From: an uncultured virus (IMG/VR IMGVR_UViG_3300029258_001230)
Taxonomy: Duplodnaviria > Heunggongvirae > Uroviricota > Caudoviricetes
Reading direction: 5' to 3' (one strand)
Length of the DNA: 20,000 nt
IMG/VR virus record: IMGVR_UViG_3300029258_001230
The position numbers and the translations under genes are program-made. The notes below the pieces were generated by a model. The model had not been told where the DNA came from, ran no database searches, and was given only the letters and a program-made list of their open reading frames with translations. Position 1 is the first letter of the stretch, and the number at the start of each line of letters is the position of its first letter. This document shows positions 4,711 through 19,210 of the stretch, one piece after another.

Positions 4711-4776
4711 CACCGTTATAACCTCCGTTTTAATGGAGGGTTATGTGGTGTTATGATCCGTTGCGATAGCTAATGG
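4705..4776 (+). repeat. attC-like site 3 (short type, 4705-4756) plus tail hairpin (4758-4776)
   Basis: TAACACC-gtt-ATAACC-TCC-gttttaat-GGA-g-GGTTAT-gt-GGTGTTA then CCGTT-GC-gata-GC-t-AATGG; near-identical to site 7. Confidence 0.85.
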
Positions 4777-4801
4777 CGTTTTCTTTTTTTAAATCAAATC
4801 A

Positions 4802-5080
4802 ATGATAGTAAAATATTCAATAATAGTATTCCTTACTCAATTAGTTTTCATAGGTTGTAGAACGTGGAATGTTAAGGCAATATCTAAAGATAAGATTGGT
4901 CAAGTTCTTTTGTCTGGATCATTAATACATATAGCATGGTTGATTTCTATTTCAATTGGTGCTATTTCTGTAAATGAAATTATTTCCGATTTTGATTGGA
5001 GGTATTTACCTGTTGTAATCTGCTCTTTGATAGGTGGATTAGTAGGTAGCTATATCTCAATGAAAAGTAAAAAGATTTAG
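4802..5080 (+). CDS. Small integral membrane protein (about 3 TM helices)
   Basis: Three hydrophobic segments, GGLVGSY glycine motif. Confidence 0.75.
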   Translation: MIVKYSIIVFLTQLVFIGCRTWNVKAISKDKIGQVLLSGSLIHIAWLISISIGAISVNEIISDFDWRYLPVVICSLIGGLVGSYISMKSKKI

Positions 5081-5086
5081 AATACA

Positions 5087-5131
5087 TTTGTATTTTAACA
5101 ATCAAAACTATATTTTAGCACAAACACAAAC
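5087..5131 (+). promoter_or_regulatory. Putative Bacteroidota-type promoter with ACACAAAC leader
   Basis: TTTG(5087)-N20-TATTTTAG(5111) then CACAAACACAAAC; resembles TTTG/TAnnTTTG consensus; recurs at 8490, 18192 (-) and 19866 (-). Confidence 0.55.
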
Positions 5132-5141
5132 ATTTTAAATC

Positions 5142-6185
5142 ATGGAATTAGAAAAGATTGACCCTGAAAAGTATGGGTTAGAAGAAATGAAAGCGGAACA
5201 AATACGTTCTCAATTTCAACCAATGCTTGACAAGATGGTCGAGTTAGAAAAGGAAGCAAATGAAGTGTTTAGCAAGCCTATTGATGAAGACACTTGTAAA
5301 TTAGCTAAAGAGGTTAGGTTGAAATTCGTTAAGGTAAGAACAGGAACGGCTAAAGTTCATAAGGAGCAAAAGGCTTTTTACTTAGCGGCTGGTAAGTTTA
5401 TTGATGGGTGGAAGAACACACAAAAATTTGCTTCTGAGGGAGTTGAAAAACGTCTTTTAGAAATTGAGAAGTATTACGAAAACTTGGAACTTCAAAAAAT
5501 CAAGGAATTAAGAGAGTCCAGAGAAGAAGAGTTGAAGTCGTTTGATGTAGAGGTTATTCCAGAGGGGTTAGGCGTAATGGATGATGCTATTTGGGATAAT
5601 TACATTCAGGGAGTCAAGACCAACCACAAGTTAAGAAAAGAAGCAGAAGAAAAGTCTCGATTGGAACAAGAGGAGAAAGAGCGAAAAGCAAAACTTCACG
5701 AAAGCAGAAAGAATAAGGTTCTTCATTTTTGGTTCTTAATGAATGATGAAGAAAAGCAGTTAGATTTTTCGGACTTCACTAATGATGAGTTTGACCAATT
5801 TTATCAAGACTTCTCAAAGCAGAAAGAGAATCACGATTTAGATCAAAAGAAAATTAAGGAAGAGAACGAAAGGCTTAAACGTGAGCAAGAGGAGAAAGAA
5901 GCCGAGGCAAAACGTCAAAGAGAGTTAGAAGCTAAAAAGCTCAGAAAACTAGAGGAGGAGAAAAAGGCTTTAGAACTAGAAGCTGAAAACAAGCGAAAAG
6001 CAGAAAAGGAAAAAGAAGAATTAGAACTTTCCAAAAAGGATTCGGATAAGGTTAAAGCACTAATCAATGATGTTACCGAATTAAAATTAAAGTATTCTTT
6101 CAAGTCAAAGAAGAATAAAGTAATGTTTGATGGGGTGTGTTCTCTTTTAGAGAAAGTAATCCATTATATTCAGACAAATAGTTAG
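5142..6185 (+). CDS. Coiled-coil phage protein, function unknown
   Basis: 347 aa, strongly E/K-rich helical C-terminal half. Confidence 0.85.
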   Translation: MELEKIDPEKYGLEEMKAEQIRSQFQPMLDKMVELEKEANEVFSKPIDEDTCKLAKEVRLKFVKVRTGTAKVHKEQKAFYLAAGKFIDGWKNTQKFASEGVEKRLLEIEKYYENLELQKIKELRESREEELKSFDVEVIPEGLGVMDDAIWDNYIQGVKTNHKLRKEAEEKSRLEQEEKERKAKLHESRKNKVLHFWFLMNDEEKQLDFSDFTNDEFDQFYQDFSKQKENHDLDQKKIKEENERLKREQEEKEAEAKRQRELEAKKLRKLEEEKKALELEAENKRKAEKEKEELELSKKDSDKVKALINDVTELKLKYSFKSKKNKVMFDGVCSLLEKVIHYIQTNS

Positions 6186-6217
6186 TAAACAATTTTTTTA
6201 ATTATAAATCAAGTATT

Positions 6218-6685
6218 ATGAATTTCAAGTGTAAAATTTCCTACATTAAACAGAACGAAAACGGATCAGTTGTAAAAGTTAAAGAAGAATATGTAGTTCC
6301 TGCATTGTCTTTTACCGAAGCAGAAGCGAATCTTCAAAGTATTTTAGAAAGCTATATTGCAGAGTATAACCTTGAAAGCTGTACTCCTTTAAAAGTGACA
6401 GATGTTATTTTTGGAGAGGGAGCAGATGATTTTTACAAAGCTAAGATAGATTATGTTAGTTATGATGAAGATTCTGGGAAAGAAAAGAAGATTTCTGAAA
6501 CTTATTTAATCCGTTCTAACAACCTTAAAGATTGTTTACCTATGATTGAATCAAGAATGGAAGGAAGTGTTGTTAATTGGGAGGTAACGTCTGTTTCAAA
6601 GACCAATATCGCAGACGTGTTTGTTGCTGAGCAATTAAAAGAAGCTTTAGGAATGAATATTCAAGAATCTGTTGAATCAAAGTAA
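6218..6685 (+). CDS. DUF4494-like protein (Bacteroidota)
   Basis: FKCKISY..ENG..KVKEEYVVPALSFTEAE, FYKAKI..DEDSGKEKK. Confidence 0.8.
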   Translation: MNFKCKISYIKQNENGSVVKVKEEYVVPALSFTEAEANLQSILESYIAEYNLESCTPLKVTDVIFGEGADDFYKAKIDYVSYDEDSGKEKKISETYLIRSNNLKDCLPMIESRMEGSVVNWEVTSVSKTNIADVFVAEQLKEALGMNIQESVESK

Positions 6686-6687
6686 AA

Positions 6688-6915
6688 ATGGATTTAAAAT
6701 GTATTGATAAGCATAAAGACGAGGACTCCGTTTTGGAGTTCTTGTCCGTTGCTAAAGAGTTTGATAACGGCATTTCGTTAGAGGACAATGTAACTATATT
6801 AAATATGGACAGGTTTTGTAATTCAATGATTAACCTAATCAAAGCAAAACCAAGTAAGCTTCAATATGAGCTAGCTATCCAAATGTCAAAATCATTAATG
6901 GCAGAGATTACCTAA
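6688..6915 (+). CDS. Hypothetical protein
   Basis: ORF track; starts 3 bp after upstream stop. Confidence 0.65.
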   Translation: MDLKCIDKHKDEDSVLEFLSVAKEFDNGISLEDNVTILNMDRFCNSMINLIKAKPSKLQYELAIQMSKSLMAEIT

Positions 6916-6995
6916 TAAACATTTTGTTAAAAAACAATAGGCAATTGCAGTAAAATTGAGTTTAACTTTATAATCCAAAATTAAAATTCAAGACT

Positions 6996-7157
6996 ATGGC
7001 AGAAATTCAGGAAGAGATTAAGAGATTACAGGGTAAGTTGACGGGGGATATGTTTAAAGACATGGACGTTAAACATAGAATCCATAAGTTAGAAATGAAG
7101 ATGAATGGTGTGAAGCCGAATGATTCTCATTTTGAGTGCGTTGGATGTAGTGCTTAA
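6996..7157 (+). CDS. 53-aa protein ending in CxxC-S-A (not in ORF track)
   Basis: MAEIQEEIKRLQGKLTGDMFKDMDVKHRIHKLEMKMNGVKPNDSHFECVGCSA*; AT-rich leader and own terminator. Confidence 0.8.
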   Translation: MAEIQEEIKRLQGKLTGDMFKDMDVKHRIHKLEMKMNGVKPNDSHFECVGCSA

Positions 7158-7181
7158 TTAATTTTAGTTTTAGTTTTTAGG

Positions 7182-7208
7182 AAAAGAGGGGTAATTCCCT
7201 CTTTTTTT
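7182..7208 (+). terminator. Rho-independent terminator
   Basis: AAAAGAGGG-gtaatt-CCCTCTTTT plus T-tract. Confidence 0.8.
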
Positions 7209-7297
7209 GTATATTAGTGTCACACAAACGTTAATAACAGGTAATTGTAATGAGACTAGAGGTCAATAGAATTGCTAATGAATGCCTTTAAATATTA

Positions 7298-7371
7298 CAA
7301 TAACACCGTAATAACAAACGTCCGCAGGATGTTTAGTTATGGGGTGTTGAAGAGCGTTGCGAAGCTAATGC
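7298..7371 (+). repeat. attC-like site 4 (short type, 7298-7352) plus tail hairpin (7354-7371); solo copy
   Basis: AACACC-gta-ATAAC-AAACGTCC-gca-GGATGTTT-a-GTTAT-gg-GGTGTT then GCGTT-GC-gaa-GC-t-AATGC; near-identical to site 6. Confidence 0.85.
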
Positions 7372-7405
7372 GAATTATTTTAAAAAACACACAAATACTA
7401 AAATT

Positions 7406-7825
7406 ATGATTGAGTTAATACCACCTTACGTCTATGTTGGGTTAGATTACAAAGTAGAGGATAAGGACTATATTTCTTATGTGGAAGATAAAACAAAAAC
7501 CATTATTAATAGGTTTTGCGGATTAGATTACCAAACATATATGATAGATAATGCTAATAGTAGAAAAAGAGAGTATGTTGTTCCTAGACAAATATACTTC
7601 TTTTTATGCCATAACATTCTTTTGGGCAGAAGGGAATATATTATATCCAAGTTTGCAAGAGAAAAGGGTTTTAATCATGGAACTCTTATTTCAAATATTA
7701 ATAGGATAAAAGGGTTTGTGGAAACAGATAAGTTGCTTAACTTTGAAATTCAGAACATGTTAAAATCAATAAAAGAATGGACTTTTCGTTACGAGCCAAC
7801 AAACACTTTTCAAGACCTCTTTTAG
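7406..7825 (+). CDS. Protein with DnaA C-terminal (domain IV)-like helix-turn-helix
   Basis: SRKREYVVPRQIYFFL ... NHGTLISNINRI ... ETDK resembles DnaA domain IV (R.r.i..pRQiamyl ... dHtTv.ha..ki). Confidence 0.6.
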   Translation: MIELIPPYVYVGLDYKVEDKDYISYVEDKTKTIINRFCGLDYQTYMIDNANSRKREYVVPRQIYFFLCHNILLGRREYIISKFAREKGFNHGTLISNINRIKGFVETDKLLNFEIQNMLKSIKEWTFRYEPTNTFQDLF

Positions 7826-8352
7826 TCAAACTTTTCAAGAATTTAAAAGGTGTTAATTGTAAAGTAGTATTCAATAAAGGGTGTAATTATTATTCTCCAG
7901 AACTAAGTATTCAGCAAAAGGAGCAAATTAATAAGTTGGTTGGATTTTCCGATGGGTTGTTTGTTCATAGAAATTCATTCAGGGTAGGTTGGAGGGCAAA
8001 TACTATTGGAGATATTGAGTTGTTTGCATATTTCTATAAAAACGGGAAAAGACCAAGCCTTCCTGAGATTGAGTACACCTATTATTTAGGTTCTGTATCT
8101 ATTGGAGAGCCTTTTGATGTTTCGATTAATAAAGTTAGTGGTAGTTATGGGGAGTCCGATTACGTTAAATATATTGTCCGAACAAGTAAAACCAAAAGTA
8201 AGGTGTTGATAGAACATAAGTCTAAAAAATCTTATGGTTGGTTTTTGAAACCCTACATTGGTGGAAAAGCTACCTATCCAAACGATATGAGTATTACGAT
8301 CAATGAAAAATCAAAAAAAGAATACTACTTCAAAGCAAAAGGTTTTAAGTAG
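7777..8352 (+). CDS. Hypothetical phage protein (predicted beta-rich)
   Basis: ORF track; NKLVGFSDG..HRNSFRVGWR, LKPYIGG; true start uncertain. Confidence 0.7.
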   Translation: MDFSLRANKHFSRPLLVKLFKNLKGVNCKVVFNKGCNYYSPELSIQQKEQINKLVGFSDGLFVHRNSFRVGWRANTIGDIELFAYFYKNGKRPSLPEIEYTYYLGSVSIGEPFDVSINKVSGSYGESDYVKYIVRTSKTKSKVLIEHKSKKSYGWFLKPYIGGKATYPNDMSITINEKSKKEYYFKAKGFK

Positions 8353-8494
8353 AGTAGACCTTAAAGGTGTCAGGCTTTGCCAATTCTACACGGATAATCC
8401 TGATTTGTTCCATAACGATAAAAGGAAGCAATACAATATATTAGGAGGGGTTGATTTCCTGCCATTGTATGATGATGTAGAAGAGGATGTTTGA
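8303..8494 (+). CDS. Hypothetical protein
   Basis: ORF track; overlaps upstream gene by 50 bp. Confidence 0.45.
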   Translation: MKNQKKNTTSKQKVLSRVDLKGVRLCQFYTDNPDLFHNDKRKQYNILGGVDFLPLYDDVEEDV

Positions 8495-8535
8495 TTTAAT
8501 AAATTAATTTATTATATTGTACCATACACAAACAC
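8490..8535 (+). promoter_or_regulatory. Putative promoter with ACACAAAC leader
   Basis: TTTG(8490)-N19-TATATTGT(8513) then ACACAAACAC before ATG 8544. Confidence 0.45.
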
Positions 8536-8543
8536 ATTGAATT

Positions 8544-8825
8544 ATGAAAAAGATTACTATTCCAGACCTGATTGTTAATTTAGAGTCTAAAAAAAGGGTT
8601 GACAAACAAGCTCCCGAAGAATCCTTACCTGACCTATATAAGAAGATTGGCTATGGTTTAGCTTTAGAGTCTTTAGAGGAGTGTAAAGATTACATTATTC
8701 ACTCAGTAAAAGGGTTTGAAGAAGCTATATCTATTTGCCGAATGTTAATCAAGAACGATAGGAAGTTAAGTAAGGATGAAATATTGGAATCATTAAAATT
8801 GTTCTTAGAAAATAACGAGTTATGA
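8544..8825 (+). CDS. Hypothetical protein
   Basis: ORF track; ATGA overlap with next gene. Confidence 0.7.
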   Translation: MKKITIPDLIVNLESKKRVDKQAPEESLPDLYKKIGYGLALESLEECKDYIIHSVKGFEEAISICRMLIKNDRKLSKDEILESLKLFLENNEL

Positions 8826-9199
8826 AAGATGAATATTTAAGAGAAAAAATCATTGCTGAATCAAAAATCCAGTCTTTAGAAGCCTCCGTCAGTAGAGAAA
8901 AAGAGATTTCAAGTAAGGCTATTGAGTCTTTAAATAGTTTCGCATCATGGCTTATAGTGGTAGTCATATTTTTTCTAAGTATAATATCATGGAAGTTTTA
9001 TGACTCCAAACCTAAGTCGCAATTAGAGTTAGAGAATGAGCGTTTGAAACAAGAGCTTAAATTTAAGCAGGAGATAATCAATAGTTGGGAGGATCATGCC
9101 AACAGAATGAAAAGAATAGTTGGTCTTCCAGATACAGTTGAGTGGTCTTATAAGCAAAAGGTTATTCGCCCAATAGATACTCATAAATTAGAGAAGTAA
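8822..9199 (+). CDS. Hypothetical single-TM coiled-coil protein
   Basis: Hydrophobic FASWLIVVVIFFLSIISW followed by coiled coil. Confidence 0.7.
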   Translation: MKDEYLREKIIAESKIQSLEASVSREKEISSKAIESLNSFASWLIVVVIFFLSIISWKFYDSKPKSQLELENERLKQELKFKQEIINSWEDHANRMKRIVGLPDTVEWSYKQKVIRPIDTHKLEK

Positions 9200-9216
9200 C
9201 AAAATTTTGAAAACAA

Positions 9217-9645
9217 ATGGAAACAAAAAATTTACGAATAGGAAACTTGGTGGGAATAAAGAAAACCGCCCTACACGCTGACGGCTGCAATACTGAAAAC
9301 ACCTTCTTTGAAATAGAGGAACTAAAAAAAGACGTAGTGCAATTTAAAGGCTTTCACGCTGGCGAATATTACAAAGACTTGAAGGGAATCAAACTTAATG
9401 AAGGGATGCTATCTCTATATGGTTTTAAACGTTCAAGTGAGAAACTAATTTACTTGCCAATACCACAGATAAAATCTGAAATACACTTTGAGAAACACGC
9501 TTACGGGAACGTGATAACCTTACAAAGTAGTGTAGGGATGTTTGTTCCAAATGATATTCAGTACTTCCACGAATTGCAGAATCTATTTTTTTCGATTACT
9601 GGCGAAGAACTTGAATTAGTACACGAACGTAGCACTTGTGGCTAA
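9217..9645 (+). CDS. Conserved Bacteroidota phage protein (LRIGN ... HELQNLFF..TGEEL family)
   Basis: Characteristic terminal motifs; stop TAA is part of GGCTAAC box of site 5. Confidence 0.8.
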   Translation: METKNLRIGNLVGIKKTALHADGCNTENTFFEIEELKKDVVQFKGFHAGEYYKDLKGIKLNEGMLSLYGFKRSSEKLIYLPIPQIKSEIHFEKHAYGNVITLQSSVGMFVPNDIQYFHELQNLFFSITGEELELVHERSTCG

Positions 9646-9771
9646 CGTATAGTGGTATGGTGTCGTAGCGGATTAGAACGCACGAACCTTTGAATAATAA
9701 CAGAACTTAATAAATAGAATAAATGATTGACTTAAACGAAAAACCGCTATGCACTATACCACGTGTTACAG
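9640..9771 (+). repeat. attC-like site 5 (long type)
   Basis: GGCTAAC-gtata-GTGGTATGGTG-t-CGTAGCGG ... CCGCTATG-CACTATACCAC-gt-GTTACAG; 132 bp. Confidence 0.85.
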
Positions 9772-10679
9772 GCAGTACGGGTATAAATGTACTATCTCTT
9801 TTTGACGGAATGAGTTGTGGACAAATAGCTTTGCAAAAGGCAGGAATAAAGGTTAACCAATACTTTGCAAGTGAGATAAAACCACACGCGATAAAAGTAA
9901 CTCAACATAACTTCCCAAATACAATACAATTAGGTAGCGTATTAGATGTAAAAGCAAGTGATTTACCGAAAATTGATTTATTGATAGGTGGAAGCCCTTG
10001 CCAAGATTTTAGTTCAGCTAATAAAGAGAAATTAGGATTGCAAGGCGAAAAATCAGGGTTATTTTATGAGTATTTAAGACTTTTAAAAGAATGTGAGCCT
10101 AAATACTTTTTACTTGAAAATGTCGCAATGGATGATTATAGTTATGCAGCAATAAGTGAAATGCTTGGAACTTACCCAACTAACATAAATAGTGAACTTG
10201 TATCAGGGCAATTAAGACAAAGAAGTTATTGGACTAATATAGGTCCGGAAAGTTTTGATTTATTTGGAAATAGATACTCAATGATACCACAACCTAGAAA
10301 CAAAAAAATAAAGTTTCAAAATTTATTAGAGAATGGATATACAGATAGATTAAAAGCAAGGTGTTTACTTGAAAGCGAAAGTAGAAATCCGGGTAGTACA
10401 TTTTCATCATTAAGAAGATATATGATAATGGGGTTTATTAATGTTATTTTTAAAGACGAAGAAACTTATAATAAATACTCTAAAATGACCGAAGATGAAA
10501 TGAAATTAAATTTTGTTGATGGCGATATTAGAAAGCTAAACCAAACAGAAATGGAAAGGCTGCAAACAGTACCAGAAGGATATACAAGTATTTTAAAAAG
10601 AAATGAAGCAGCTTGTTTGCTTGGTGATGGATGGACTGTTGATGTTATTGCACATATTTTCGGATATGCACAGTTTTAG
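9723..10679 (+). CDS. DNA (cytosine-5)-methyltransferase, orphan
   Basis: Motif I VLSLFDG, motif IV GGSPCQ, motif VI LLENV, motif VIII QLRQRSYW, motif IX ERLQT, motif X LGDGW; no cognate endonuclease nearby. Confidence 0.95.
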   Translation: MIDLNEKPLCTIPRVTGSTGINVLSLFDGMSCGQIALQKAGIKVNQYFASEIKPHAIKVTQHNFPNTIQLGSVLDVKASDLPKIDLLIGGSPCQDFSSANKEKLGLQGEKSGLFYEYLRLLKECEPKYFLLENVAMDDYSYAAISEMLGTYPTNINSELVSGQLRQRSYWTNIGPESFDLFGNRYSMIPQPRNKKIKFQNLLENGYTDRLKARCLLESESRNPGSTFSSLRRYMIMGFINVIFKDEETYNKYSKMTEDEMKLNFVDGDIRKLNQTEMERLQTVPEGYTSILKRNEAACLLGDGWTVDVIAHIFGYAQF

Positions 10680-10685
10680 TATTGC

Positions 10686-10759
10686 CTGTAACACCGAAAT
10701 AACAAACGTCCGTAGGATGTTTAGTTATGGAGTGTTAAAGAGCGTTCCGAAGGAAATGC
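10686..10759 (+). repeat. attC-like site 6 (short type, 10686-10740) plus tail hairpin (10742-10759)
   Basis: TAACAC-cgaa-ATAAC-AAACGTCC-gta-GGATGTTT-a-GTTAT-gga-GTGTTA then GCGTT-CC-gaa-GG-a-AATGC. Confidence 0.85.
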
Positions 10760-10810
10760 GAACTATTTATGAAATTTTGACAAATCAATTAAAAACAATA
10801 TATTTAAACT

Positions 10811-11053
10811 ATGAATCATCAAAAAGGAACACTAGGTTATTTACGATCGAATGGCTATATTAAAGCGGTCAACAGAATAGAGGATTTGGCTAAAAGACAA
10901 GATGTTGTAGTTCACGACATTGAGAACCCGTTATTTGTTGTAGATTTTACAGAGTCAGAAGAGGGTGCGGTTTTTTGGAAAAAGTTTCTCTCTGGGGATT
11001 TTGAATCATTAATAGTAAAAGAACATGAACATTTATTAAATTTAGAAGTATGA
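10811..11053 (+). CDS. Hypothetical protein (F.ES.EG..FW motif)
   Basis: ORF track; ATGA overlap with next gene. Confidence 0.7.
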   Translation: MNHQKGTLGYLRSNGYIKAVNRIEDLAKRQDVVVHDIENPLFVVDFTESEEGAVFWKKFLSGDFESLIVKEHEHLLNLEV

Positions 11054-11322
11054 AAAGAGGCTTTAAATGGTGGGTAGAACTTTACGAGAAAAACGAGTTA
11101 ACCCAAATTTTATCAGCAGGAGGATTAATGTGCCTATGTGCTATAATAGCAAACTTTAACGATGACTTCATGTATGGGGTTGTCTTTTTTGCTTTATTGT
11201 TTGCCGTAATGATTCTGAGATATATTGTTTATGCTTGGATTATTTACCCAATTAAAGCGAAGAAAGAAAGCAGGCAAAGAAAGTTAAACAAGGATAAAGA
11301 ACTTTTCGGGGATGATAATTAA
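11050..11322 (+). CDS. Hypothetical membrane protein (2 TM)
   Basis: Two hydrophobic segments, basic tail. Confidence 0.7.
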   Translation: MKRGFKWWVELYEKNELTQILSAGGLMCLCAIIANFNDDFMYGVVFFALLFAVMILRYIVYAWIIYPIKAKKESRQRKLNKDKELFGDDN

Positions 11323-11443
11323 GGTTATACTGGTAGCTATTGTTTTAGAGTTGTTTTTAAAACCCAGATTGGATAGAACTAATCAAGGTGTATGGCTATT
11401 GTGGTATGGTCGTAAAAACAGAGACTACATTAAATTGAATTAG
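11312..11443 (+). CDS. Hypothetical 43-aa membrane-anchored peptide (not in ORF track)
   Basis: MIIKVILVAIVLELFLKPRLDRTNQGVWLLWYGRKNRDYIKLN*; fills the gap between 11322 and 11446. Confidence 0.55.
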   Translation: MIIKVILVAIVLELFLKPRLDRTNQGVWLLWYGRKNRDYIKLN

Positions 11444-12505: not shown

Positions 12506-12629
12506 ATGTTATGATTCAACTCTGATGTCATACGTTGTAAGAGGACGCACAGGACAACCAACAACACAAAAGGTTGACTATTGACATAAGAAAGAATAGC
12601 TAAGGACTGTGTGAGGGTTTCGTAATAAT

Positions 12630-12830
12630 AAAAGCGGTAAGGGAGTGAGGCGGTGAGCTTTAAAATAGGTGGCGGTGCGTACGACTGAAAGTTAATTGAC
12701 CGTTTAAATAACTACCTACCCTTATCGCTTTTCTTTGTAAGTATAAAATCCATAGACGGTGAGGTATAGCGTCTGTTTAGAAATAGTAGTCACAGATTGT
12801 GGCTTCAAGTATATTCAGACAGCCGTCTAT
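12630..12830. other. Structured non-coding region (candidate ncRNA)
   Basis: AAAAGCGGTAAGGG (12630-12643) pairs with CCCTTATCGCTTTT (12719-12732); ATAGACGG (12752-12759) pairs with CCGTCTAT (12823-12830); nested inner stems. Confidence 0.4.
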
Positions 12831-12836
12831 ATAATT

Positions 12837-12912
12837 ATTGAACACCGTTATAACCTCCGTGCGAAGCCATGGAGGGTTATGTGGTGTTACGAGCCGTTGC
12901 GAAGCTAATGGC
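12837..12912 (+). repeat. attC-like site 7 (short type, 12837-12892) plus tail hairpin (12893-12912); solo copy
   Basis: AACACC-gtt-ATAACC-TCCGTG-cgaagc-CATGGA-g-GGTTAT-gt-GGTGTT then GCCGTT-GC-gaa-GC-t-AATGGC and T-tract; near-identical to site 3. Confidence 0.85.
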
Positions 12913-12938
12913 GTTTTCTTTTTTTTAATAATAGAACA

Positions 12939-13460
12939 ATGGATAATAATGAAATCAAGACATTCGTAATTTTAGGGATGCACCGATCAGCAACTTCTTT
13001 AGTTGCTAAATCAATGAATGAAAATGTGTTTATGGGGTATAATGAGGAGATGTTACCTCCAGCTCCAGACAATCCAGAAGGATTCTTTGAAAATAAAAGA
13101 TTTTTAGAGTTGAATGATGCTATACTTCATAAGGCAGGGGGTAACTGGTTAGAACCACCTTTAAAAGAAGCGATTTTAGAGCAGAAGAGTGAGTTTTTGA
13201 GTGATATTACCTCAATCGTAAATGAATATAACGAGAATGGCTTAAATTGGGGATGGAAAGACCCTAGAACAAGTTTGACTATTCCTTTGTTTCACGAACA
13301 TCTTATAAATCCTCACTATATTAGCGTGTTTAGAGAGCCTTTAGAGGTTGCTAAGTCATTAAATAGGCGTAATGGTATTTCAATTGAGAAAGGAATGTTA
13401 TGCGCTAAGGAATACAATTACCGAATCATTCAGTTTTTGAGTGAGTTTGGATTGAAGTAA
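12939..13460 (+). CDS. Sulfotransferase family protein
   Basis: ILGMHRSATS (PAPS 5'-phosphosulfate loop), NPEGFFE, WGWKDPRT, FREPLEVAKSL (3'-phosphate-binding R..S). Confidence 0.85.
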   Translation: MDNNEIKTFVILGMHRSATSLVAKSMNENVFMGYNEEMLPPAPDNPEGFFENKRFLELNDAILHKAGGNWLEPPLKEAILEQKSEFLSDITSIVNEYNENGLNWGWKDPRTSLTIPLFHEHLINPHYISVFREPLEVAKSLNRRNGISIEKGMLCAKEYNYRIIQFLSEFGLK

Positions 13461-13480
13461 TTAATAATATTATAGCAAAT

Positions 13481-13512
13481 AAAAAGCCTCTACTTAATCG
13501 TGGAGGTTTTTT
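13481..13512. terminator. Bidirectional terminator between the converging arms
   Basis: AAAAAGCCTCTAC-ttaatc-GTGGAGGTTTTT, A-tract left and T-tract right. Confidence 0.8.
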
Positions 13513-13619
13513 GTTTTCGGGTGTTTTTAAAAAGGTTTTCAATCTTCCTGAGATTAAATAGCCCTAAGAAGTATAATCCAATTAGGGCTAGAATAATAAT
13601 CGTCTTTAATACAATCATT

Positions 13620-13829
13620 TTAGCAGGCTAATTTAACGATTGTTCTGTTCTCGAAAGCTGAGAGCTTTTTAGCTTCCTTTAAGTTTTCTCGTTCTTCTCT
13701 TGTCTTCTTAAACCAATCTCTGTTAATCGGAGTTAATCCGTAGTTAATTTCGTCCTGAACGATTCTTCTTAAACTCTCCGCTTGAGCGATAATCTGTTGG
13801 ATTGATAAATTCTTTCTTTCTGGTTTCAT
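13620..13829 (-). CDS. Hypothetical protein
   Basis: ATG 13829 (MKPERKNL...) preferred; preceded by AAACACAAA leader motif. Confidence 0.65.
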   Translation of the reverse strand: MKPERKNLSIQQIIAQAESLRRIVQDEINYGLTPINRDWFKKTREERENLKEAKKLSAFENRTIVKLAC

Positions 13830-14273
13830 AATTTTAAAATTTGTGTTTGATAAATATACTAATAAAAAACAAGACATAGGATTATAATAAGCTCTATAAA
13901 GCAGATTATAGTAACCATTCCAATTATTCTTTGCTGTTCTTTGATTTTGTGATATGATCTTATGATTAGATCATCTTGTTTAGATAAGTTTGATTTCATG
14001 AGTCTTGGGATAATGTTAGTATTAAGGTCAATATACAAAAAAGTGAAAATCTAGGCAATAAAGGATACGGTATTGTCTCTACAAATAAAACGATTATAAA
14101 GAATAGGTAAACCCTAAGATAATTTTTTATGTGCCGACAAGCCCTTTTAAACAAATTGTTTTGGTTATAATTATCACGCATTACTTCTTTTTTTTTAGAG
14201 GTACGAGATTACTATTTACATAGTAAGCATCTTTGTCCTTTCTGTATTTTTTTCAAACTTGTAGTATTTCATT

Positions 14274-14663
14274 TTAAAAGTGATTATTTGCTACTAAGGT
14301 AATAAATATAGCCCACATTATAAGGAGTACCCAAAAGGTTACTGAAAACAGATTGTTTAATTCAGAGCTTCCCTTCGCCCAAGATTTAAGAGTGAACCAT
14401 TTGTTGTGCCAAGGGTGATTGGAGGCGGAAGCATAGCGATTAAATAGATTAACGAGTATCCAAGTCGGGAAAACCAATAAGTGTTTAGCAATATATTTTG
14501 TGTGTAGCATGATCCTATCGAGCCAAGATGATTGCTTAAAGGTCAATTTGTATGTCTCTGACTTGTCTATGTTTTTAAAACTTAATTCGACTCGTTGCTT
14601 TTTATCTGTATCACTCAAGTCTATTGTTTGTTTAGGGTGTTTAAACGGTTTATGTAGGATCAT
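14274..14663 (-). CDS. Hypothetical membrane protein
   Basis: ORF track; C-terminal hydrophobic helix. Confidence 0.65.
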   Translation of the reverse strand: MILHKPFKHPKQTIDLSDTDKKQRVELSFKNIDKSETYKLTFKQSSWLDRIMLHTKYIAKHLLVFPTWILVNLFNRYASASNHPWHNKWFTLKSWAKGSSELNNLFSVTFWVLLIMWAIFITLVANNHF

Positions 14664-14673
14664 TCTTGATGTG

Positions 14674-14874
14674 TTAAAAAAGGTAGTTAATAATAATTAT
14701 AGATACAATACATATACCGTATATAATCACTTTTGTTACTATATAAGGTATGTCTGGTTTAAAGCTAGTTGAACACTCTCTTGTTCTAGTGTTTGATTCG
14801 TTATCTGTTACCATTTCTGCATAGGGTTGTTTGAAATTTATGCCAAAATCAGCTTTCTTTTGTAGGTCTTTCAT
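14674..14874 (-). CDS. Hypothetical protein with C-terminal TM helix
   Basis: ORF track; tandem packing with neighbours. Confidence 0.6.
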   Translation of the reverse strand: MKDLQKKADFGINFKQPYAEMVTDNESNTRTRECSTSFKPDIPYIVTKVIIYGICIVSIIIINYLF

Positions 14875-14883
14875 AGATTATTT

Positions 14884-15132
14884 TTAAAATTCAAGATCTG
14901 ATTTGTCTATTTGCATTTTACCAGTCCATTTGATGTTTACCCAAGCCTTTTGCAATGGGTTTTTGCAATCTTTTAATAGTAAGGGAATACTGAAAACAAC
15001 CTTGTAAGGGCGATTCTTCATAAAATCAGTCTTAATGATATGCGCACCTATTTTAATAAAGTTTATTTTATTAAGAGGTACGTTTATTATTAGAGAGTCT
15101 CCTTCTTTGTATCGGTTTAATTTATTACTCAT
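14884..15132 (-). CDS. Hypothetical protein
   Basis: ORF track frame; ATG 15132 (MSNKLNR) preferred over TTG 15153. Confidence 0.6.
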   Translation of the reverse strand: MSNKLNRYKEGDSLIINVPLNKINFIKIGAHIIKTDFMKNRPYKVVFSIPLLLKDCKNPLQKAWVNIKWTGKMQIDKSDLEF

Positions 15133-15232
15133 GTCTTCTAAATATTCTTTCAATTAAGTTCCTTTGTTTGAGTATATGCAAGTCTGATTTGAGGTTAGTT
15201 ACTTCGCTTTCCAATCGCTTTACCTCTTTCAT
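15125..15232 (-). CDS. Possible 35-aa coiled-coil peptide (not in ORF track)
   Basis: MKEVKRLESEVTNLKSDLHILKQRNLIERIFRRHE*; fills gap and overlaps next start. Confidence 0.4.
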   Translation of the reverse strand: MKEVKRLESEVTNLKSDLHILKQRNLIERIFRRHE

Positions 15233-15267
15233 TAGTCTAATCTCTCTATTAGTAGCTCTAAGCTTGT

Positions 15268-15453
15268 TTAATTTCGGCATACGTCTATCTTTCTAATATT
15301 TGATACAATCTCTGCTTTAGTCTTTTTAGCAACATGGTCGGCGAAGTCTTTTAGGAAGTAATGCAGGTATTGACCACCCCCTTCTTTCTCTATCCTTTGA
15401 TTAGAATCACAATCCATTTTTGCTAGGTAATTGGATATTTCTTTTGGCGTCAT
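15268..15453 (-). CDS. Hypothetical protein
   Basis: ORF track; ATGA overlap with upstream gene. Confidence 0.6.
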   Translation of the reverse strand: MTPKEISNYLAKMDCDSNQRIEKEGGGQYLHYFLKDFADHVAKKTKAEIVSNIRKIDVCRN

Positions 15454-15872
15454 ATTTTTTTTGATTCTATTAATTCTCTATTGTGGCTTAATACTTCTTG
15501 TATTTCATTAATAGAAGATTCAGCTATATTGATAGCATATTTTATAGATTCTTCGGGAGTGTCAAAATTTTTAGTTCCTTCTGACCACATCGCAGATGAA
15601 CCCCCAGCTTTATCTTTTTCCGAGTTTATAAAAGATGAGTAGGTAGTTACCTTTCCCCCTTCTCCATCCCATACTATATTTTCGAGAACCTCCATACTAC
15701 CTAAAGTAGCGCTGTAATGATAAGACGTTACCTCCCAAATATTAGCCTTCCAATTACCGCCAACTTTCTCTTTTAGTCTATTTGCTAATCTTTTCGATAA
15801 TTCTAAGGACTCTTTTTTGGATAAGGGAACACGACACCCCTTGAACTGTGTATTTTCTAAATTAGGAATCAT
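15450..15872 (-). CDS. Hypothetical protein
   Basis: ORF track, 140 aa. Confidence 0.7.
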   Translation of the reverse strand: MIPNLENTQFKGCRVPLSKKESLELSKRLANRLKEKVGGNWKANIWEVTSYHYSATLGSMEVLENIVWDGEGGKVTTYSSFINSEKDKAGGSSAMWSEGTKNFDTPEESIKYAINIAESSINEIQEVLSHNRELIESKKI

Positions 15873-15875
15873 AAT

Positions 15876-16940
15876 CTACTTCTTTAAATCGTTTAACATT
15901 TCTTCTTCTGAATTGTAGGTTTTAAGGATTTCACACCCTTCTTTAAAATCCTTCATACCTTCAAAGTATCTAACCTCTTTCCATTTGTCGGACGGGAAAT
16001 TGATAGGGACTAAAACCTTATACCACTTGTCTTCTTTAGGTTGTTCAATAGGTTTAGCATTCTTCCAAGATAAATACTCTCTACAATCCATGTCAGTTGA
16101 GTAACAAACATAAAAATCTCTATCCATAGCAAAGAATATAGAATATTCATAGTCCTCTATATCATTGTGCCACACTTTGATTTTTTCTCCTTTCTCAGGT
16201 TTCCACTCTTTTTCATAATGCTCTCCAGTATTTCCATTTTGTCCTATTATATCCACACGTCTATTGGTTTCTTCTTCGGTTGAGTGTTCGATAAGAAGTT
16301 GCTCTATACTCTTAGCAGAACAGTAATTAATCTCTTTATTTTTATGTAATTTATAAATATATGAGTCAGTTTCTTTTTGATAGCCCGTAATAACGCCCTT
16401 ATATCCATTGACACCCATAACGTCCATTCCAAGAATACCTAAAGGATCGTTTTCGTTAGCTTTAGTTAGTAAGCGTTTCATTTTTTCGTATGACACGGGG
16501 TTAATCACTAATGATTTATGACAGTAGGTAAAAGCATTGCCATTCCAGTAGAAATTTAAAGAATCAACAGCGTTTTGAAGTCCATTTATGTGTATAGGGT
16601 ATCCATTGCTCTGAGCTAAGTGTAATAGTTCACTCTTTTCTTCTCTATTTACATCATCTCCTAAGCATCCATCACCAATATTAAATTCATGTTTCATAAG
16701 TTTGTTTGTTTCAGGAGTGTCTTCTTTGTTATCGAATAGGTGCGGTTGGAGTTGTTTGGCTTGGTCGAAATCTTTGCTATCGACCGATGACCAAAAATCG
16801 TGACCCTCACTTGTTTCTCCCCACGAAATGTAAAATAAATCGTGAGAATCACCAAGCCTAACACTTTGCTCTTTCTGACACTCCAAAGCCCTTTTATAAA
16901 GCTTATGGTAACCTAATTCTTTTAATTCTTTAATTTTCAT
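15876..16940 (-). CDS. Hypothetical multi-module phage protein
   Basis: ATG 16940 (MKIKELKELG) preferred; short motifs WGETSEGHDFW, DIIGQNGNTGEHYE, SWKNAKPI. Confidence 0.75.
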   Translation of the reverse strand: MKIKELKELGYHKLYKRALECQKEQSVRLGDSHDLFYISWGETSEGHDFWSSVDSKDFDQAKQLQPHLFDNKEDTPETNKLMKHEFNIGDGCLGDDVNREEKSELLHLAQSNGYPIHINGLQNAVDSLNFYWNGNAFTYCHKSLVINPVSYEKMKRLLTKANENDPLGILGMDVMGVNGYKGVITGYQKETDSYIYKLHKNKEINYCSAKSIEQLLIEHSTEEETNRRVDIIGQNGNTGEHYEKEWKPEKGEKIKVWHNDIEDYEYSIFFAMDRDFYVCYSTDMDCREYLSWKNAKPIEQPKEDKWYKVLVPINFPSDKWKEVRYFEGMKDFKEGCEILKTYNSEEEMLNDLKK

Positions 16941-16956
16941 ATTTTTTGATTTGTAG

Positions 16957-17280
16957 TTATTTGACAAAAACAAAACCGTCTTCTCCGTTTCTATTTTTAA
17001 CAGTTATTTTAATCGTGTATAAATTGTGAGAACTAGGTCTTCTAACAGCATCACCGTCACTATATTTTTTAACAACATCACCATTTTCGTTAAAACAAAA
17101 CGCTCCATCCATGTGATCTATTGCTGTAACTAAATCATTCTTAAAGTAATGAATCAAACCAGTCTCGTTTAAAATATAATTCGCTCTAAATCTACCGACT
17201 AACTTTACAATATACTCTTTATAATTAGTAGTGTTGTTTGGGTGAGATACTTTCATCATTTCTGGTAACATACTAATCAA
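16957..17280 (-). CDS. Hypothetical protein
   Basis: ORF track; start uncertain. Confidence 0.65.
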   Translation of the reverse strand: MISMLPEMMKVSHPNNTTNYKEYIVKLVGRFRANYILNETGLIHYFKNDLVTAIDHMDGAFCFNENGDVVKKYSDGDAVRRPSSHNLYTIKITVKNRNGEDGFVFVK

Positions 17281-17566
17281 ATTTTAATTTTTCCATTTCC
17301 TTTCTGATTCCTTCGTATTTGTGCCATCCGCTTGGTTCGTAAAAGTCTCTCAATTCATTAAGCGATAACCCTCCAGATGCGAACGCTATTCTTTCTCTAG
17401 TCTTTTCGTACTCCATAGCCTCCCACGTCATATTTGCGTAAAGCTTCTGAATTGCGTTTTGGGTCATTTGACTTGTGTCGTAACTTTTCTCTAAAAGTTT
17501 CTTTCTTTTCTTGGCTGTTTTGTTTAGTTCTTTTGCTTGTATTAAAATATATTCTTCCTTGGTCAT
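17273..17566 (-). CDS. Hypothetical protein
   Basis: ORF track, 97 aa. Confidence 0.7.
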   Translation of the reverse strand: MTKEEYILIQAKELNKTAKKRKKLLEKSYDTSQMTQNAIQKLYANMTWEAMEYEKTRERIAFASGGLSLNELRDFYEPSGWHKYEGIRKEMEKLKFD

Positions 17567-17581
17567 TTTTGCGTGTTTTAA

Positions 17582-17794
17582 TTATTTAATTGTAGAATAG
17601 CAAAGTTCGTCAATACTTATCTTGAAAAAGTCTGCTAAAATTTTCAGGGTATGAACAGTTGGAGTTGAAAACCCACTCTCATAGTGTCTGTATATAGCTT
17701 CATTCTTCTTTCCAATAACCTTTGCCATATCCAGTTGGGTTAACCCTCGTTTAGATCGCAAGTGTATTAAGTTGTGGTGTAGCCTGTATTTCAT
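17582..17794 (-). CDS. XRE/Cro-C1 family helix-turn-helix regulator
   Basis: NLIHLRSKRGLTQLDMAKVIG...YRHYESG.STP....LKILADFFKISIDEL. Confidence 0.9.
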   Translation of the reverse strand: MKYRLHHNLIHLRSKRGLTQLDMAKVIGKKNEAIYRHYESGFSTPTVHTLKILADFFKISIDELCYSTIK

Positions 17795-17798
17795 AGGT

Positions 17799-18137
17799 CT
17801 AAAAAACTTTAATTCGGTTAATTACTTTAATGCTCTCAAAGAACTTATCGCATTCATCGCTTACCACTTCCATGACATCGTATTCAAAAACAGTTTCTCC
17901 AGTAGCGCAATCTAAAACGTCAAACTCAACTGCTTTTGCTTTATAAAGTTCTGCATTTAAAACCAAGCTAGGGCAACTATCTCTGCAAACAGATAAGTCA
18001 TAGTATAGATATAAATAAACCTCTCGTTCGTTATCTACCACCTCCACAGGAAGGTATCCATTTATTCGGTTCTCGTCTGTTAATTCTGAATCTTTAATTT
18101 CAGTCTTGATTAAATCAATTAAATTTTCCTTTCTCAT
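17799..18137 (-). CDS. Hypothetical acidic protein
   Basis: ORF track; preceded by promoter/leader motif. Confidence 0.7.
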   Translation of the reverse strand: MRKENLIDLIKTEIKDSELTDENRINGYLPVEVVDNEREVYLYLYYDLSVCRDSCPSLVLNAELYKAKAVEFDVLDCATGETVFEYDVMEVVSDECDKFFESIKVINRIKVF

Positions 18138-18144
18138 AATATTC

Positions 18145-18192
18145 GTGTTTGTGTGTTTATGCTAAAATAGTAATTATTTTACGGTTATCAAA
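18145..18192 (-). promoter_or_regulatory. Putative promoter with ACACAAAC leader
   Basis: Minus strand TTTG-N19-TATTTTAG-cataaACACACAAACAC before ATG 18137. Confidence 0.55.
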
Positions 18193-18196
18193 ACAA

Positions 18197-18559
18197 TTAT
18201 TCATTCTGCTTGAATGTTTTGATTAGTTTGTCCGCTTCAAACAATATTTCATGGACTTCCGACTTAGTTAATATTAGATCATGTTCTTGTTTCATGAACT
18301 CAAAAAATGACTGATACTCTGGAGTTATACCACTATCTTCTTTTTTGCTTAATTGAGGTTGAGAGATTATAGTTAAATAAGATTGGCACTCCGCCCTATT
18401 GAAACGCCAAGAAGGGATCTGAAATGGCTTAGGGTTGGTTAACATAAAGTAAACCACTCCATCCTCAATGTCGTAAATCTCTACTTCTGAAACAGTCCCT
18501 AAGCATCTAGCCATTGCCTTTTGCCCTACTTTAATTTTTTGAAAGTGTTTATCAAACAT
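18197..18559 (-). CDS. Hypothetical protein
   Basis: ORF track, 120 aa. Confidence 0.7.
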   Translation of the reverse strand: MFDKHFQKIKVGQKAMARCLGTVSEVEIYDIEDGVVYFMLTNPKPFQIPSWRFNRAECQSYLTIISQPQLSKKEDSGITPEYQSFFEFMKQEHDLILTKSEVHEILFEADKLIKTFKQNE

Positions 18560-18616
18560 ATTTTTTTTTAAAAGGTTGGTAATTAGTTTTTGATGCTATT
18601 AAGCAAATCGTTCAAG

Positions 18617-18880
18617 TTATATGTAACCTTTGTTTCGTGCCTTTCTATCAGCGTTCTTTTGGTTACGAGCGTATATCACATTTTGACCGTAAAAGTATTC
18701 GTTAACACCTTGTTTTTTAAGTCGCTCTATTCGTTTCTTTTCCGAAAAAGATTTTAGTTCTTCCTTTTTTTTATCTGTCAAGCCTTGGTATTCAGTACCT
18801 TCATGATAGCCAGACCCGTACATGGAAGCCATGCTAGCCATCATTGCTAGTAATCCTGCTTGTTTTTTCATCCTATTCAT
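18617..18880 (-). CDS. Hypothetical phage protein (IYARNQKNADRKA motif)
   Basis: ORF track; start overlaps upstream stop. Confidence 0.75.
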   Translation of the reverse strand: MNRMKKQAGLLAMMASMASMYGSGYHEGTEYQGLTDKKKEELKSFSEKKRIERLKKQGVNEYFYGQNVIYARNQKNADRKARNKGYI

Positions 18881-19104
18881 TACTTCCTGTTTTTTCGAGA
18901 TTCATTAACTTTACTCGCAATTAAATCAATAGCAAGCTTTTCTGTAATCCATGATTCCACATCTGACCATGGAACACAATCACCTTTATTATCTATAAAC
19001 ACTTTAAGTGTTCTGCTGTAAATAGTTTTAGTGATTTGACTATTGCCTTTAGTTACCACAAGACAGTGTTCTTCGTTCTTTGGTTCTCTTCTTAATTTAC
19101 TCAT
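18880..19104 (-). CDS. Hypothetical protein
   Basis: ORF track; AAACACA-rich leader downstream of site 8. Confidence 0.7.
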   Translation of the reverse strand: MSKLRREPKNEEHCLVVTKGNSQITKTIYSRTLKVFIDNKGDCVPWSDVESWITEKLAIDLIASKVNESRKNRK

Positions 19105-19137
19105 TTTATGTGTTTTATGTGTGTTTCAAAATAATTC

Positions 19138-19210
19138 GCATTAGCGTTCCGCAACGCTCTTTAACACCGTATAACTCGCCATTAAAACGGCGGTTATTTC
19201 GGTGTTACCT
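19138..19210 (-). repeat. attC-like site 8 (short type, 19159-19210) plus tail hairpin (19138-19157)
   Basis: Minus strand TAACACCG-aa-ATAAC-CGCC-gttttaat-GGCG-a-GTTAT-a-CGGTGTTA then GCGTT-GCG-gaa-CGC-t-AATGC; same orientation as local genes. Confidence 0.85.

What the first reader, a model, noticed from the sequence alone, without database searches (positions are those of the whole stretch)
4758..19157. Covarying mini-hairpin tail marks the short sites, which close every cassette run or stand alone
Seen: each short site is followed within a few nt by a second hairpin with conserved pairing but variable sequence: CCGTT-GC-gata-GC-t-AATGG (4758), GCGTT-GC-gaa-GC-t-AATGC (7354), GCGTT-CC-gaa-GG-a-AATGC (10742), GCCGTT-GC-gaa-GC-t-AATGGC (12893) and GCGTT-GCG-gaa-CGC-t-AATGC (19157, minus). 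There are compensatory changes, a constant G-T pair and a constant one-base bulge. Short site plus tail is last in all three runs and solo at 7298 and 12837; the other four sites lack it. Established: GCGAAGC is an unusually stable ssDNA mini-hairpin. Inference: the module is a resident landing pad (functional attI analogue) or an accessory protein-binding element, and solo copies may be empty docking sites.
Basis: partly seen in the sequence, partly recalled or inferred. Interest (0 to 1): 0.72.

Follow-up and report, generated by a model that had tools for sequence, protein, structure and literature searches.

The report
Two-hairpin gene-boundary module of uncultured phages
The "tail" is the real second hairpin of an ~85-base two-hairpin spacer that uncultured phages place between genes, and whole gene blocks differ between these spacers, but nothing supports an integron-like docking site.

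Summary
The five tail hairpins are real, at the stated coordinates, and structurally constrained. Each is the second hairpin (H2) of a discrete ~85-nt module. H1 runs AACACC..ATAAC-variable top-GTTAT..GGTGTT; a 3-5 nt spacer follows, then H2.

I found 19 copies in the window and related uncultured phage contigs. Pairing covaries (score 0.211 against 0.074 in shuffles, 0/500). The G.T pair in the CGTT/AATG helix is invariant (19/19).

The inner GNA mini-hairpin and its one-base bulge are not the defining feature. Eight of 19 copies lack them and have a plain loop instead, so they act as an optional cap. The same cap swaps in and out of H1 tops.

Modules sit between co-directional genes, usually starting at the upstream stop codon. 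They always lie in the gene's orientation, and only the sense strand folds well.

A related contig shares with the window only these modules (77-96% identity, sharp edges, same order) plus a 184-nt terminus. No gene between them is shared.

No integrase or transposase turned up in anything searched.

Best reading: gene-boundary punctuation acting on the sense strand, probably in RNA, and doubling as a homology patch for block exchange. It works like the PeSL cassettes of T4-type phages but is unrelated to them. The attI-like landing-pad idea is not supported.

The parts
4709..4790 (+). Module 1 (type A): H1 4709-4752, spacer, H2 4758-4776 capped by GCGATAGC, T-tract 4779-4790. The stop codon of gene 4366-4710 overlaps its first bases; the next ATG is at 4802.
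   Evidence: 82 bits; z -4.05
7302..7385 (+). Module 2 (type B): H1 7302-7348 with a GCA-loop cap, H2 7354-7371 capped by GCGAAGC, then an A/T-rich leader to the ATG at 7406. It lies 92 nt after a canonical terminator at 7182-7210.
   Evidence: D5; 96.2 bits; z -3.93
10690..10773 (+). Module 3 (type B): H1 10690-10736, H2 10742-10759 capped by CCGAAGG. It starts 10 nt after the stop of the C5 DNA methylase gene 9723-10679. A promoter-like TTTG-N19-TATATTTA (10776-10806) follows it.
   Evidence: (94.5 bits)
12841..12926 (+). Module 4 (type A): H1 12841-12888 capped by the mini-hairpin, H2 12893-12912 capped by GCGAAGC, T-tract 12914-12926. The scan calls it terminator-like. A 333-nt ORF-free stretch precedes it.
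   Evidence: (89.9 bits)
19125..19206 (-). Module 5 (type B, minus strand, among minus-strand genes): H1 19206-19163, H2 19157-19138 capped by GCGGAACGC, leader to the ATG at 19104.
   Evidence: 77.3 bits; z -4.59
19519..19602 (-). Degenerate relative of H1 with a longer outer stem and a GCGAAGC cap. It has no H2.
   Evidence: (29.7 bits, E 0.0047)
7182..7210 (+). Context: canonical hairpin plus T-run terminator that closes the unit before module 2.
   Evidence: (D5)
13485..13515 (.). Context: hairpin flanked by A-run and T-run at the point where + and - strand genes converge.
19796..19979 (.). Context: terminal stretch, 96% identical in reverse to the first 184 nt of the related contig. Both contigs end here.

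Best explanation
The tail is hairpin 2 of a conserved, discrete ~85-nt two-hairpin module that a group of uncultured phages places between co-directional genes. The hosts are probably Flavobacteriia or other Bacteroidota.

Shown:
- Both hairpins are under selection for pairing.
- Only the gene-sense strand folds well.
- The module starts at or just after the upstream stop codon and ends 10-35 nt before the next start.
- Both hairpin tips carry the same small helix, CGT paired with ATG through a G.T pair. It is closed either by a plain TTTA loop or by a GNA/GNNA mini-hairpin cap.
- The modules are the only DNA conserved between otherwise unrelated gene blocks.

Inferred: the module acts in the transcript as gene-boundary punctuation.
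- In the four copies whose H2 is followed by a T-run, it acts as an attenuator or terminator.
- In the others, it acts as a processing or stability element. Cleavage in the short purine-rich spacer would leave H1 protecting the upstream 3' end and H2 capping the downstream 5' end, with the AUG in H2 sequestered.

Because the same ~85 nt recur at many boundaries and in many co-occurring phages, they also serve as patches for homologous recombination that swaps whole gene blocks. This is how PeSL cassettes behave in T4-type phages. The mini-hairpin is an optional stabilising cap, not a recombination signal.
For: Structure: covariation and controls; folds.

Strand: the sense strand folds better than its complement in 17/19 modules with RNA parameters and 19/19 with DNA parameters. 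For H2 it is 19/19 with both.

Placement: 10 of 10 modules in the two long contigs lie in the orientation of the flanking genes. The upstream same-strand ORF ends -2 to +25 nt from the module in 13 of 17 copies that have one. The next same-strand ORF starts 72-122 nt after the H1 start in 15 of 19 (ORFs of at least 40 aa, called mechanically).

Terminator-like copies: a T-run follows H2 in modules 1 and 4 and in their two counterparts. The scan calls 12893-12912 terminator-like.

Block exchange:
- Window and related contig share only the modules (77-96% identity) and a 184-nt terminus by blastn.
- They share 0 protein pairs at E<=1e-5.
- Identity starts exactly at AACACC and stops after the T-run.
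- Counterparts of modules 1, 3 and 4 keep their order.
- Between L044 and L022, homology (93.7%) begins exactly at the module's first base.
- Public-run contigs break at the modules, and depth there is about 87 against about 14 in the flanks.

No dedicated enzyme: no integrase or transposase family found.

PeSL precedent: abstracts of PMC2839356 and PMC4122927 and section 13 of PMC2839356.
Against: No RNA data exist: no RNA run holds this DNA, so transcription, ends and cleavage are all unobserved.

Most copies lack a T-run next to the stem, so a terminator role covers only 4 of 19.

The caps are exactly the GCGNAGC/GCGNNAGC and CCGAAGG motifs that are extraordinarily stable as DNA but much less so as RNA, according to passages of the review PMC13037366. 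That points towards a DNA strand.

Outside the two conserved G.T columns, wobble pairs do not favour the sense strand: 4 G.T against 17 A.C cells, 12 of them at one loop-edge column.

Module 2 lies just after a canonical terminator, so it is not needed for termination there.

Near-identity of 94-96% over the whole module between genomes with unrelated flanks is more than hairpin function alone requires.

Only about half of the source contig could be held, so an enzyme could be encoded in the unseen part.
Confidence: 0.5

Rival explanations
1. A single-stranded-DNA signal on the sense strand. This could be a priming site (as in G4 origin hairpins or RSF1010 ssiA) or a hairpin promoter (as in phage N4 early promoters), read by a primase or polymerase while the strand is exposed during replication or transcription.
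For: The caps match the mini-hairpin DNA motifs, and CCGAAGG is the very cap reported in ssiA. The G4, St-1 and N4 precedents come from passages of PMC13037366. Folding is strand-specific. One carrier genome encodes a primase/helicase.
Against: Eight of 19 copies have no cap. Placement is tied to stop and start codons, which a priming site does not need. No protein is shared by all carriers. The complete carrier genome has a tape-measure protein, so it is siphovirus-like rather than N4-like.
Confidence: 0.13
2. A small selfish mobile element (MITE-, REP- or homing-type) that copies itself into intergenic sites of phage genomes, with no benefit to the phage.
For: Sharp edges and 94-96% identity amid unrelated flanks. 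Many copies per genome. Higher depth than flanks in the community. The outer arms form a terminal inverted repeat.
Against: Counterpart modules keep their order in two genomes. Co-orientation with genes is strict. The module starts at stop codons. No transposase was found. No copy was found in about 186,000 representative bacterial and archaeal genomes: 0 true among 10 pattern hits. I looked for no target-site duplication and saw no empty site.
Confidence: 0.1
3. An integron-like site-specific recombination site. H1 would be an attC analogue and H1 plus tail a resident attI-like pad, with the folded strand recombined by an integrase.
For: H1 has the general layout of a folded attC: outer stem, unpaired spacer, inner stem ATAAC/GTTAT, an extra base on one arm, and a variable top (the attC layout is recalled). 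Gene blocks between modules differ between relatives.
Against: No tyrosine recombinase in the window, in the relatives' held DNA, or in a complete carrier genome. Intervals of 2-6 kb hold several genes plus terminator- and promoter-like signals. The strand that folds is the gene-sense strand, whereas attC sites use the bottom strand (recalled). The tail occurs at every full module, not at one resident site.
Confidence: 0.06
4. A double-stranded operator or cruciform bound by a phage or host DNA-binding protein, for example a regulator acting on a promoter embedded behind H2.
For: H1 has invariant outer boxes AACAC/GTGTT and ATAAC/GTTAT, and H2 has CGTT/AATG. Eleven of 19 copies are followed by a weak match to the Bacteroidota -7 box, whose consensus is recalled.
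Against: Compensatory changes in the variable top (7 pairs with changes on both sides) and the strand asymmetry are not expected for duplex recognition. Spacing between any -33-like TTG and the -7-like box varies from 9 to 26 nt by my reading.
Confidence: 0.08

Closest known systems
PeSL (promoter-early stem-loop) cassettes of T4-type phages (PMC2839356, PMC4122927)
   Same: Both are short conserved intergenic motifs that begin at the upstream stop codon, contain a stem-loop, and end at the next start codon. Both are concentrated among small accessory genes, sit at insertion, deletion or replacement junctions between related phages, and are thought to act as homology patches for modular shuffling.
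   Different: There is no sequence relationship. The host and phage type differ: the complete carrier is siphovirus-like and the hosts are probably Bacteroidota. This module has two hairpins with a fixed architecture and a conserved G.T helix. A promoter inside the module is not established. No mini-circles have been shown.
Integron attC/attI sites
   Same: An imperfect hairpin with an unpaired spacer, an extra base and a variable top. Located 3' of genes in a fixed orientation, with variable gene content between sites.
   Different: No integrase was found. The intervals are multi-gene and carry their own signals. The sense strand folds. The primary sequence is highly conserved. The second hairpin is present at every full copy.
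Intercistronic RNase III sites of T7-like phages and intrinsic terminators (recalled)
   Same: Irregular hairpins of about 20 bp with an internal loop between cistrons, repeated along the genome in the direction of transcription. In four copies a T-run follows the hairpin.
   Different: No cleavage or termination data exist. The conserved CGT/ATG helix and the second hairpin have no counterpart that I know of.
Mini-hairpin DNA motifs GCGNAGC/GCGNNAGC and CCGAAGG in G4/St-1 origins, RSF1010 ssiA and N4 early promoters (passages of PMC13037366)
   Same: The caps in H1 and H2 are exactly these motifs.
   Different: Here the cap is optional (absent in 8 of 19 H2) and sits on top of a larger conserved structure at gene boundaries of a double-stranded DNA phage.
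REP/BIME and REPIN elements with RAYT transposases (recalled)
   Same: A dispersed family of intergenic imperfect palindromes.
   Different: These are in phage genomes, not bacterial chromosomes. No Y1 transposase was found among 89 proteins scanned. Gene-sense orientation is strict, and counterpart order is conserved.

Membership tests
Integron attC/attI | An IntI-type tyrosine recombinase encoded with the array | tested here: not met
   No PF00589 match in 37 window proteins, in 52 proteins of relatives and the upstream 5 kb of the source contig, or in the complete 40-kb carrier G001. About 23 kb of the source contig could not be held.
Integron attC/attI | Cassettes of one promoterless ORF, each followed by one site | tested here: not met
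   Intervals of 2.1-6.3 kb hold 1 to about 12 ORFs, a canonical terminator (7182-7210) and promoter-like sites.
Integron attC/attI | RYYYAAC...GTTRRRY boxes, with the bottom strand as the folded substrate (recalled definition) | tested here: inconclusive
   ATAAC/GTTAT resembles the AAC/GTT core but departs from the full consensus. The better-folding strand is the gene-sense strand.
PeSL cassettes | Intergenic, from the upstream stop codon to the downstream start, with a stem-loop | tested here: met
   definition from section 13 of PMC2839356.
PeSL cassettes | A functional early promoter inside the motif | tested here: inconclusive
   Only weak matches to the Bacteroidota -7 box follow H2 in 11 of 19 copies, with no consistently spaced -33 element. 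The consensus is recalled.
PeSL cassettes | Located at replacement or indel junctions between related phages | tested here: met
PeSL cassettes | T4-type myovirus genomes and sequence similarity to known PeSLs | tested here: not met
   The complete carrier has a tape-measure protein and a 40-kb genome. DUF4494 homologues point to Bacteroidota phages. No match in 50,697 phage records.
Intrinsic terminator | A G+C-rich hairpin directly followed by a T-run | tested here: inconclusive
   Met by 4 of 19 copies (modules 1 and 4 and their counterparts). The others have a T-poor or displaced tract.
Rfam RNA families | A match to any curated covariance model | tested here: not met
   0 matches at gathering score over the window, and 0 at E<=1 around module 4 and in 3500-4400.
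Mini-hairpin DNA signals (ssi sites, N4 promoters) | A GCGNAGC-type cap required within the recognised hairpin | tested here: not met
   Present in 11 of 19 H2 (one broken) and absent in 8.

The most novel reading that the evidence does not exclude
The module is a dedicated, integrase-free recombination device. Strand-specific DNA hairpins, stabilised where needed by mini-hairpin caps, would form on the exposed sense strand and be used to cut and paste whole gene blocks between co-infecting phages. The agent could be a phage single-strand annealing protein, template switching, or an unknown nuclease. This would be a functional analogue of integron attC sites in lytic Bacteroidota phages.

One observation fits exchange inside the hairpin: the same 8-nt cap appears on two different H1 stems, and all four stem/cap combinations exist.
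Probability: 0.08. Interest if true: 0.85.

Novelty: new variant of a known kind. Interest (0 to 1): 0.5.

Why it matters
Phage genomes are mosaics, but the sequences at which blocks are exchanged are known in detail for few groups, mainly the PeSLs of T4-type phages. Here, a group of uncultured and probably Bacteroidota-infecting phages keeps a scaffold of near-identical two-hairpin spacers while everything between them is replaced. That gives a concrete, testable boundary element in a poorly studied phage-host group.

It also defines a structured motif absent from Rfam, with an invariant G.U-containing helix that could be a handle for a host or phage factor. If the element controls RNA ends, it could also be tried as an insulator part for Bacteroidota genetics.

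Tried and rejected
- Whole genome of the window: none is held.
- Megablast of 10 kb against phage records: no match. Distant blastn of two modules found only chance-level short hits, plus a weak H1-like hairpin in Flavobacterium phage 11b that the model does not detect at E<10.
- Rfam and tRNA scans: nothing.
- Relatives by protein: the 347-aa protein found none in viral contigs.
- Viral-contig patterns gave mostly chance hits: 1 true of 20 loci, 1 of 1, 1 true of 2.
- Representative genomes: 10 pattern hits, none a module.
- Expression: no RNA holder listed. Only DNA contigs could be laid. Its joints had short sides (27-57 nt) or unknown inserts, so I did not use them as evidence of deletions.
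- Wobble-pair counting as an RNA-versus-DNA test: uninformative outside the two conserved G.T columns.
- A conserved partner protein: an all-against-all comparison of carriers found none shared by all.
- A short reading frame from the H2 ATG: its stop overlaps the next start as ATGA in 4 of 10 modules of the two long contigs. My post hoc estimate puts chance near 0.002. Its length runs from 2 to 35 codons and its peptide is not conserved, so I did not build on it.
- An embedded promoter: spacing is inconsistent.
- Earlier notes of this scan by place and by sequence: nothing.


Full report
**What the window is.** It has 33% G+C and is packed with small genes. Genes run on the + strand up to about 13.5 kb and on the - strand after that. 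Family hits are phage-like: methyl-, glycosyl- and sulfotransferases, a C5 DNA methylase, a DEDD exonuclease, an HTH regulator and DUF4494. DUF4494 homologues lie in Bacteroides, Parabacteroides and Porphyromonas phages. No close relative exists among 50,697 phage records. The window matches the last 20 kb of a 48-kb metagenome contig at 99.99%.

**The observation.** Each follows, after 3-5 nt, a 44-48-nt main hairpin (H1). H1 has an outer stem AACACC/GGTGTT, a 3x2-nt internal loop, an inner stem ATAAC/GTTAT, usually one extra base on the 3' arm, and a variable top. The H1 arm pattern occurs 5 times against 0.67 expected. All five copies fold into H1 plus H2 with z from -3.0 to -4.6.

**Relatives.** Pattern scans found the module in these places:
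- A second contig of the same sample series (L043/L035), with five copies.
- Seven further metagenome contigs.
- Two viral contigs. One of these is a complete 40-kb genome with terminal repeats (G001) that has one full and one weak copy.

Yields were 16 true loci of 26 in the metagenome scan, five of them the window's own contig, and 1 true of 20, 1 of 1 and 1 of 2 in the viral scans. None of 10 hits in representative bacterial and archaeal genomes is a module.

A covariance model built on 18 copies recovers 19 at E<=1e-6. Three pairs among them are close relatives of each other: L044/L022, L027/L038 and L045/L051. The model also finds weaker, tail-less variants, among them window 19519-19602 on the - strand.

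**Covariation.** On the 19 copies, 89.4% of cells pair. The covariation score is 0.211 against 0.074+-0.012 in shuffles (0/500), and 0.04-0.10 with slid partners.

| H2 pair | Pair types |
|---|---|
| Closing pair | CG 9, GC 8, AU 2 |
| Next pair out | GC 8, AU 1, CG 1 (unpaired in 9) |
| Cap pair | GC 7, CG 3 |
| G.T pair | 19/19 |

Seven pairs of the H1 top change on both sides. RNAalifold predicts the bases of both hairpins independently.

In 8 of 19 copies H2 has no inner mini-hairpin and no bulge. The helix CGTT/AATG simply closes on a short T/A loop, while the stem below it covaries.

The same small helix, CGT paired with ATG through G.T, also tops H1 in most copies (G.T or T.G in 15 of 19). 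There too it is closed either by TTTA or by a cap such as GCGAAGC.

Modules 1 and 4 have the same H1 stem, without and with the cap. Module 5 and its counterpart in the relative repeat this on a different stem. All four stem/cap combinations therefore exist, which I cannot explain by point mutation.

The caps are exactly the mini-hairpin DNA motifs GCGNAGC, GCGNNAGC and CCGAAGG. The review PMC13037366 (passages read) confirms their unusual stability as DNA. It reports much lower stability as RNA, and lists them in G4/St-1 origins, RSF1010 ssiA and N4 promoters.

**Placement.** All 10 modules of the two long contigs lie in the orientation of the flanking genes. Across the 19 copies:
- The upstream same-strand ORF ends -2 to +25 nt from the module in 13 of 17 copies that have one. 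In four of them the stop codon overlaps the module's first bases.
- The next ORF starts 72-122 nt after the H1 start in 15 of 19.

The sense strand folds better than its complement in 17/19 modules (RNA parameters) and 19/19 (DNA parameters). For H2 alone it is 19/19 with both.

Two kinds of 3' flank exist. Four copies (type A: modules 1 and 4 and their counterparts) have a long T-run. Type B copies have a conserved A/T-rich stretch leading into an ACACAAA-type leader.

Module 2 lies 92 nt after a canonical terminator. Module 3 is followed by a Bacteroidota-type promoter candidate (the consensus is recalled).

**Mosaicism.** By blastn, the window and the related contig share only the modules (77-96% identity) and a 184-nt terminal stretch. 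tblastx adds only faint similarity in one gene, and blastp finds no shared protein at E<=1e-5.

Identity starts at AACACC and stops after the T-run. Counterparts of modules 1, 3 and 4 (96%, 87% and 94%) keep their order. The whole series is inverted relative to the shared terminus.

Other junctions:
- Between L044 and L022, homology starts at the module's first base.
- L027 and L038 differ by a 213-nt indel right after the module.
- L045 and L051 share little beyond H1.

Contigs of public runs break at the modules, and depth there is about 87 against about 14 in the flanks. This indicates that several co-occurring genomes share the module.

**Enzymes.** No integrase, transposase or Y1 family appears among 37 window proteins or 52 proteins of relatives and the upstream part of the source contig. 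None appears in the complete carrier genome. Carriers share almost no proteins. Some encode general recombination functions next to a module: Erf in L027, and a PD-(D/E)XK nuclease in L043.

**Reading.** The data show a strand-specific, structurally constrained, gene-boundary module that is also the unit of homology between otherwise unrelated gene blocks.

I infer an RNA-level punctuation role: attenuation in the T-run copies, and processing, stability or start-codon sequestering elsewhere. A PeSL-like role as a recombination patch follows from that (two abstracts and section 13 of PMC2839356).

The DNA-type caps keep an ssDNA signal alive as the main rival. The integron analogy fails on enzyme, cassette structure and folding strand. 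There are no RNA data, so the mechanism remains inference.

Noticed in passing
window 12506-12838: A 333-nt ORF-free, G+C-richer stretch directly upstream of module 4, which carries a T-run. It folds with z -3.17 and has no Rfam match at E<=1. It may be a structured non-coding RNA that ends at the module.
   Followed up: partly
window 19796-20000; L043 1-184: The last 184 nt of the source contig are 96% identical, in reverse, to the first 184 nt of the related contig, and both contigs end there. The stretch 19897-19998 holds CCCTCCAC-like direct repeats. It is probably a physical genome end or a packaging/terminal-repeat region.
   Followed up: partly
window modules 1/4 and 5; L043 461: The same 8-nt mini-hairpin cap replaces TTTA on two different H1 stems, so all four stem/cap combinations exist. 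This points to exchange or templated insertion inside the hairpin tip, and remains unexplained.
   Followed up: partly
window 4773-4804, 7368-7409; L043 2655-2685, 9293-9335: The ATG in the 3' arm of H2 opens a short frame whose TGA overlaps the next gene's ATG (ATGA) in 4 of 10 modules of the two long contigs. Elsewhere the frame is 2-35 codons long and the peptide is not conserved. It may reflect translational coupling or chance.
   Followed up: partly
window 5088-5118 (+), 10776-10806 (+), 18191-18162 (-): Intergenic matches to the Bacteroidota promoter pattern (TTTG, 18-20 nt, TAnnTTT-type box). Two are followed by ACACAAA-rich leaders. At 10811 the ATG lies 5 nt after the box, suggesting a leaderless message.
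   Followed up: no
window 9723-10679; L043 8450-9229: The module-3 counterpart is preceded by a DNA methyltransferase in both phages, but of unrelated families: C5 cytosine in the window and D12 N6-adenine in the relative. An analogous gene has been replaced at the same boundary.
   Followed up: no
L064 2485-2535 (Flavobacterium phage 11b, NC_006356.2 about 3000-3050): An intergenic hairpin with an H1-like layout and a T/A-rich loop but no H2, upstream of small genes that precede the terminase. The covariance model does not detect it, so it is only a lead for a cultured relative.
   Followed up: partly
window 3526-4019 and 4224-4365: Two further ORF-poor stretches, with a strong hairpin at 4231-4256. 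No Rfam match at E<=1.
   Followed up: partly
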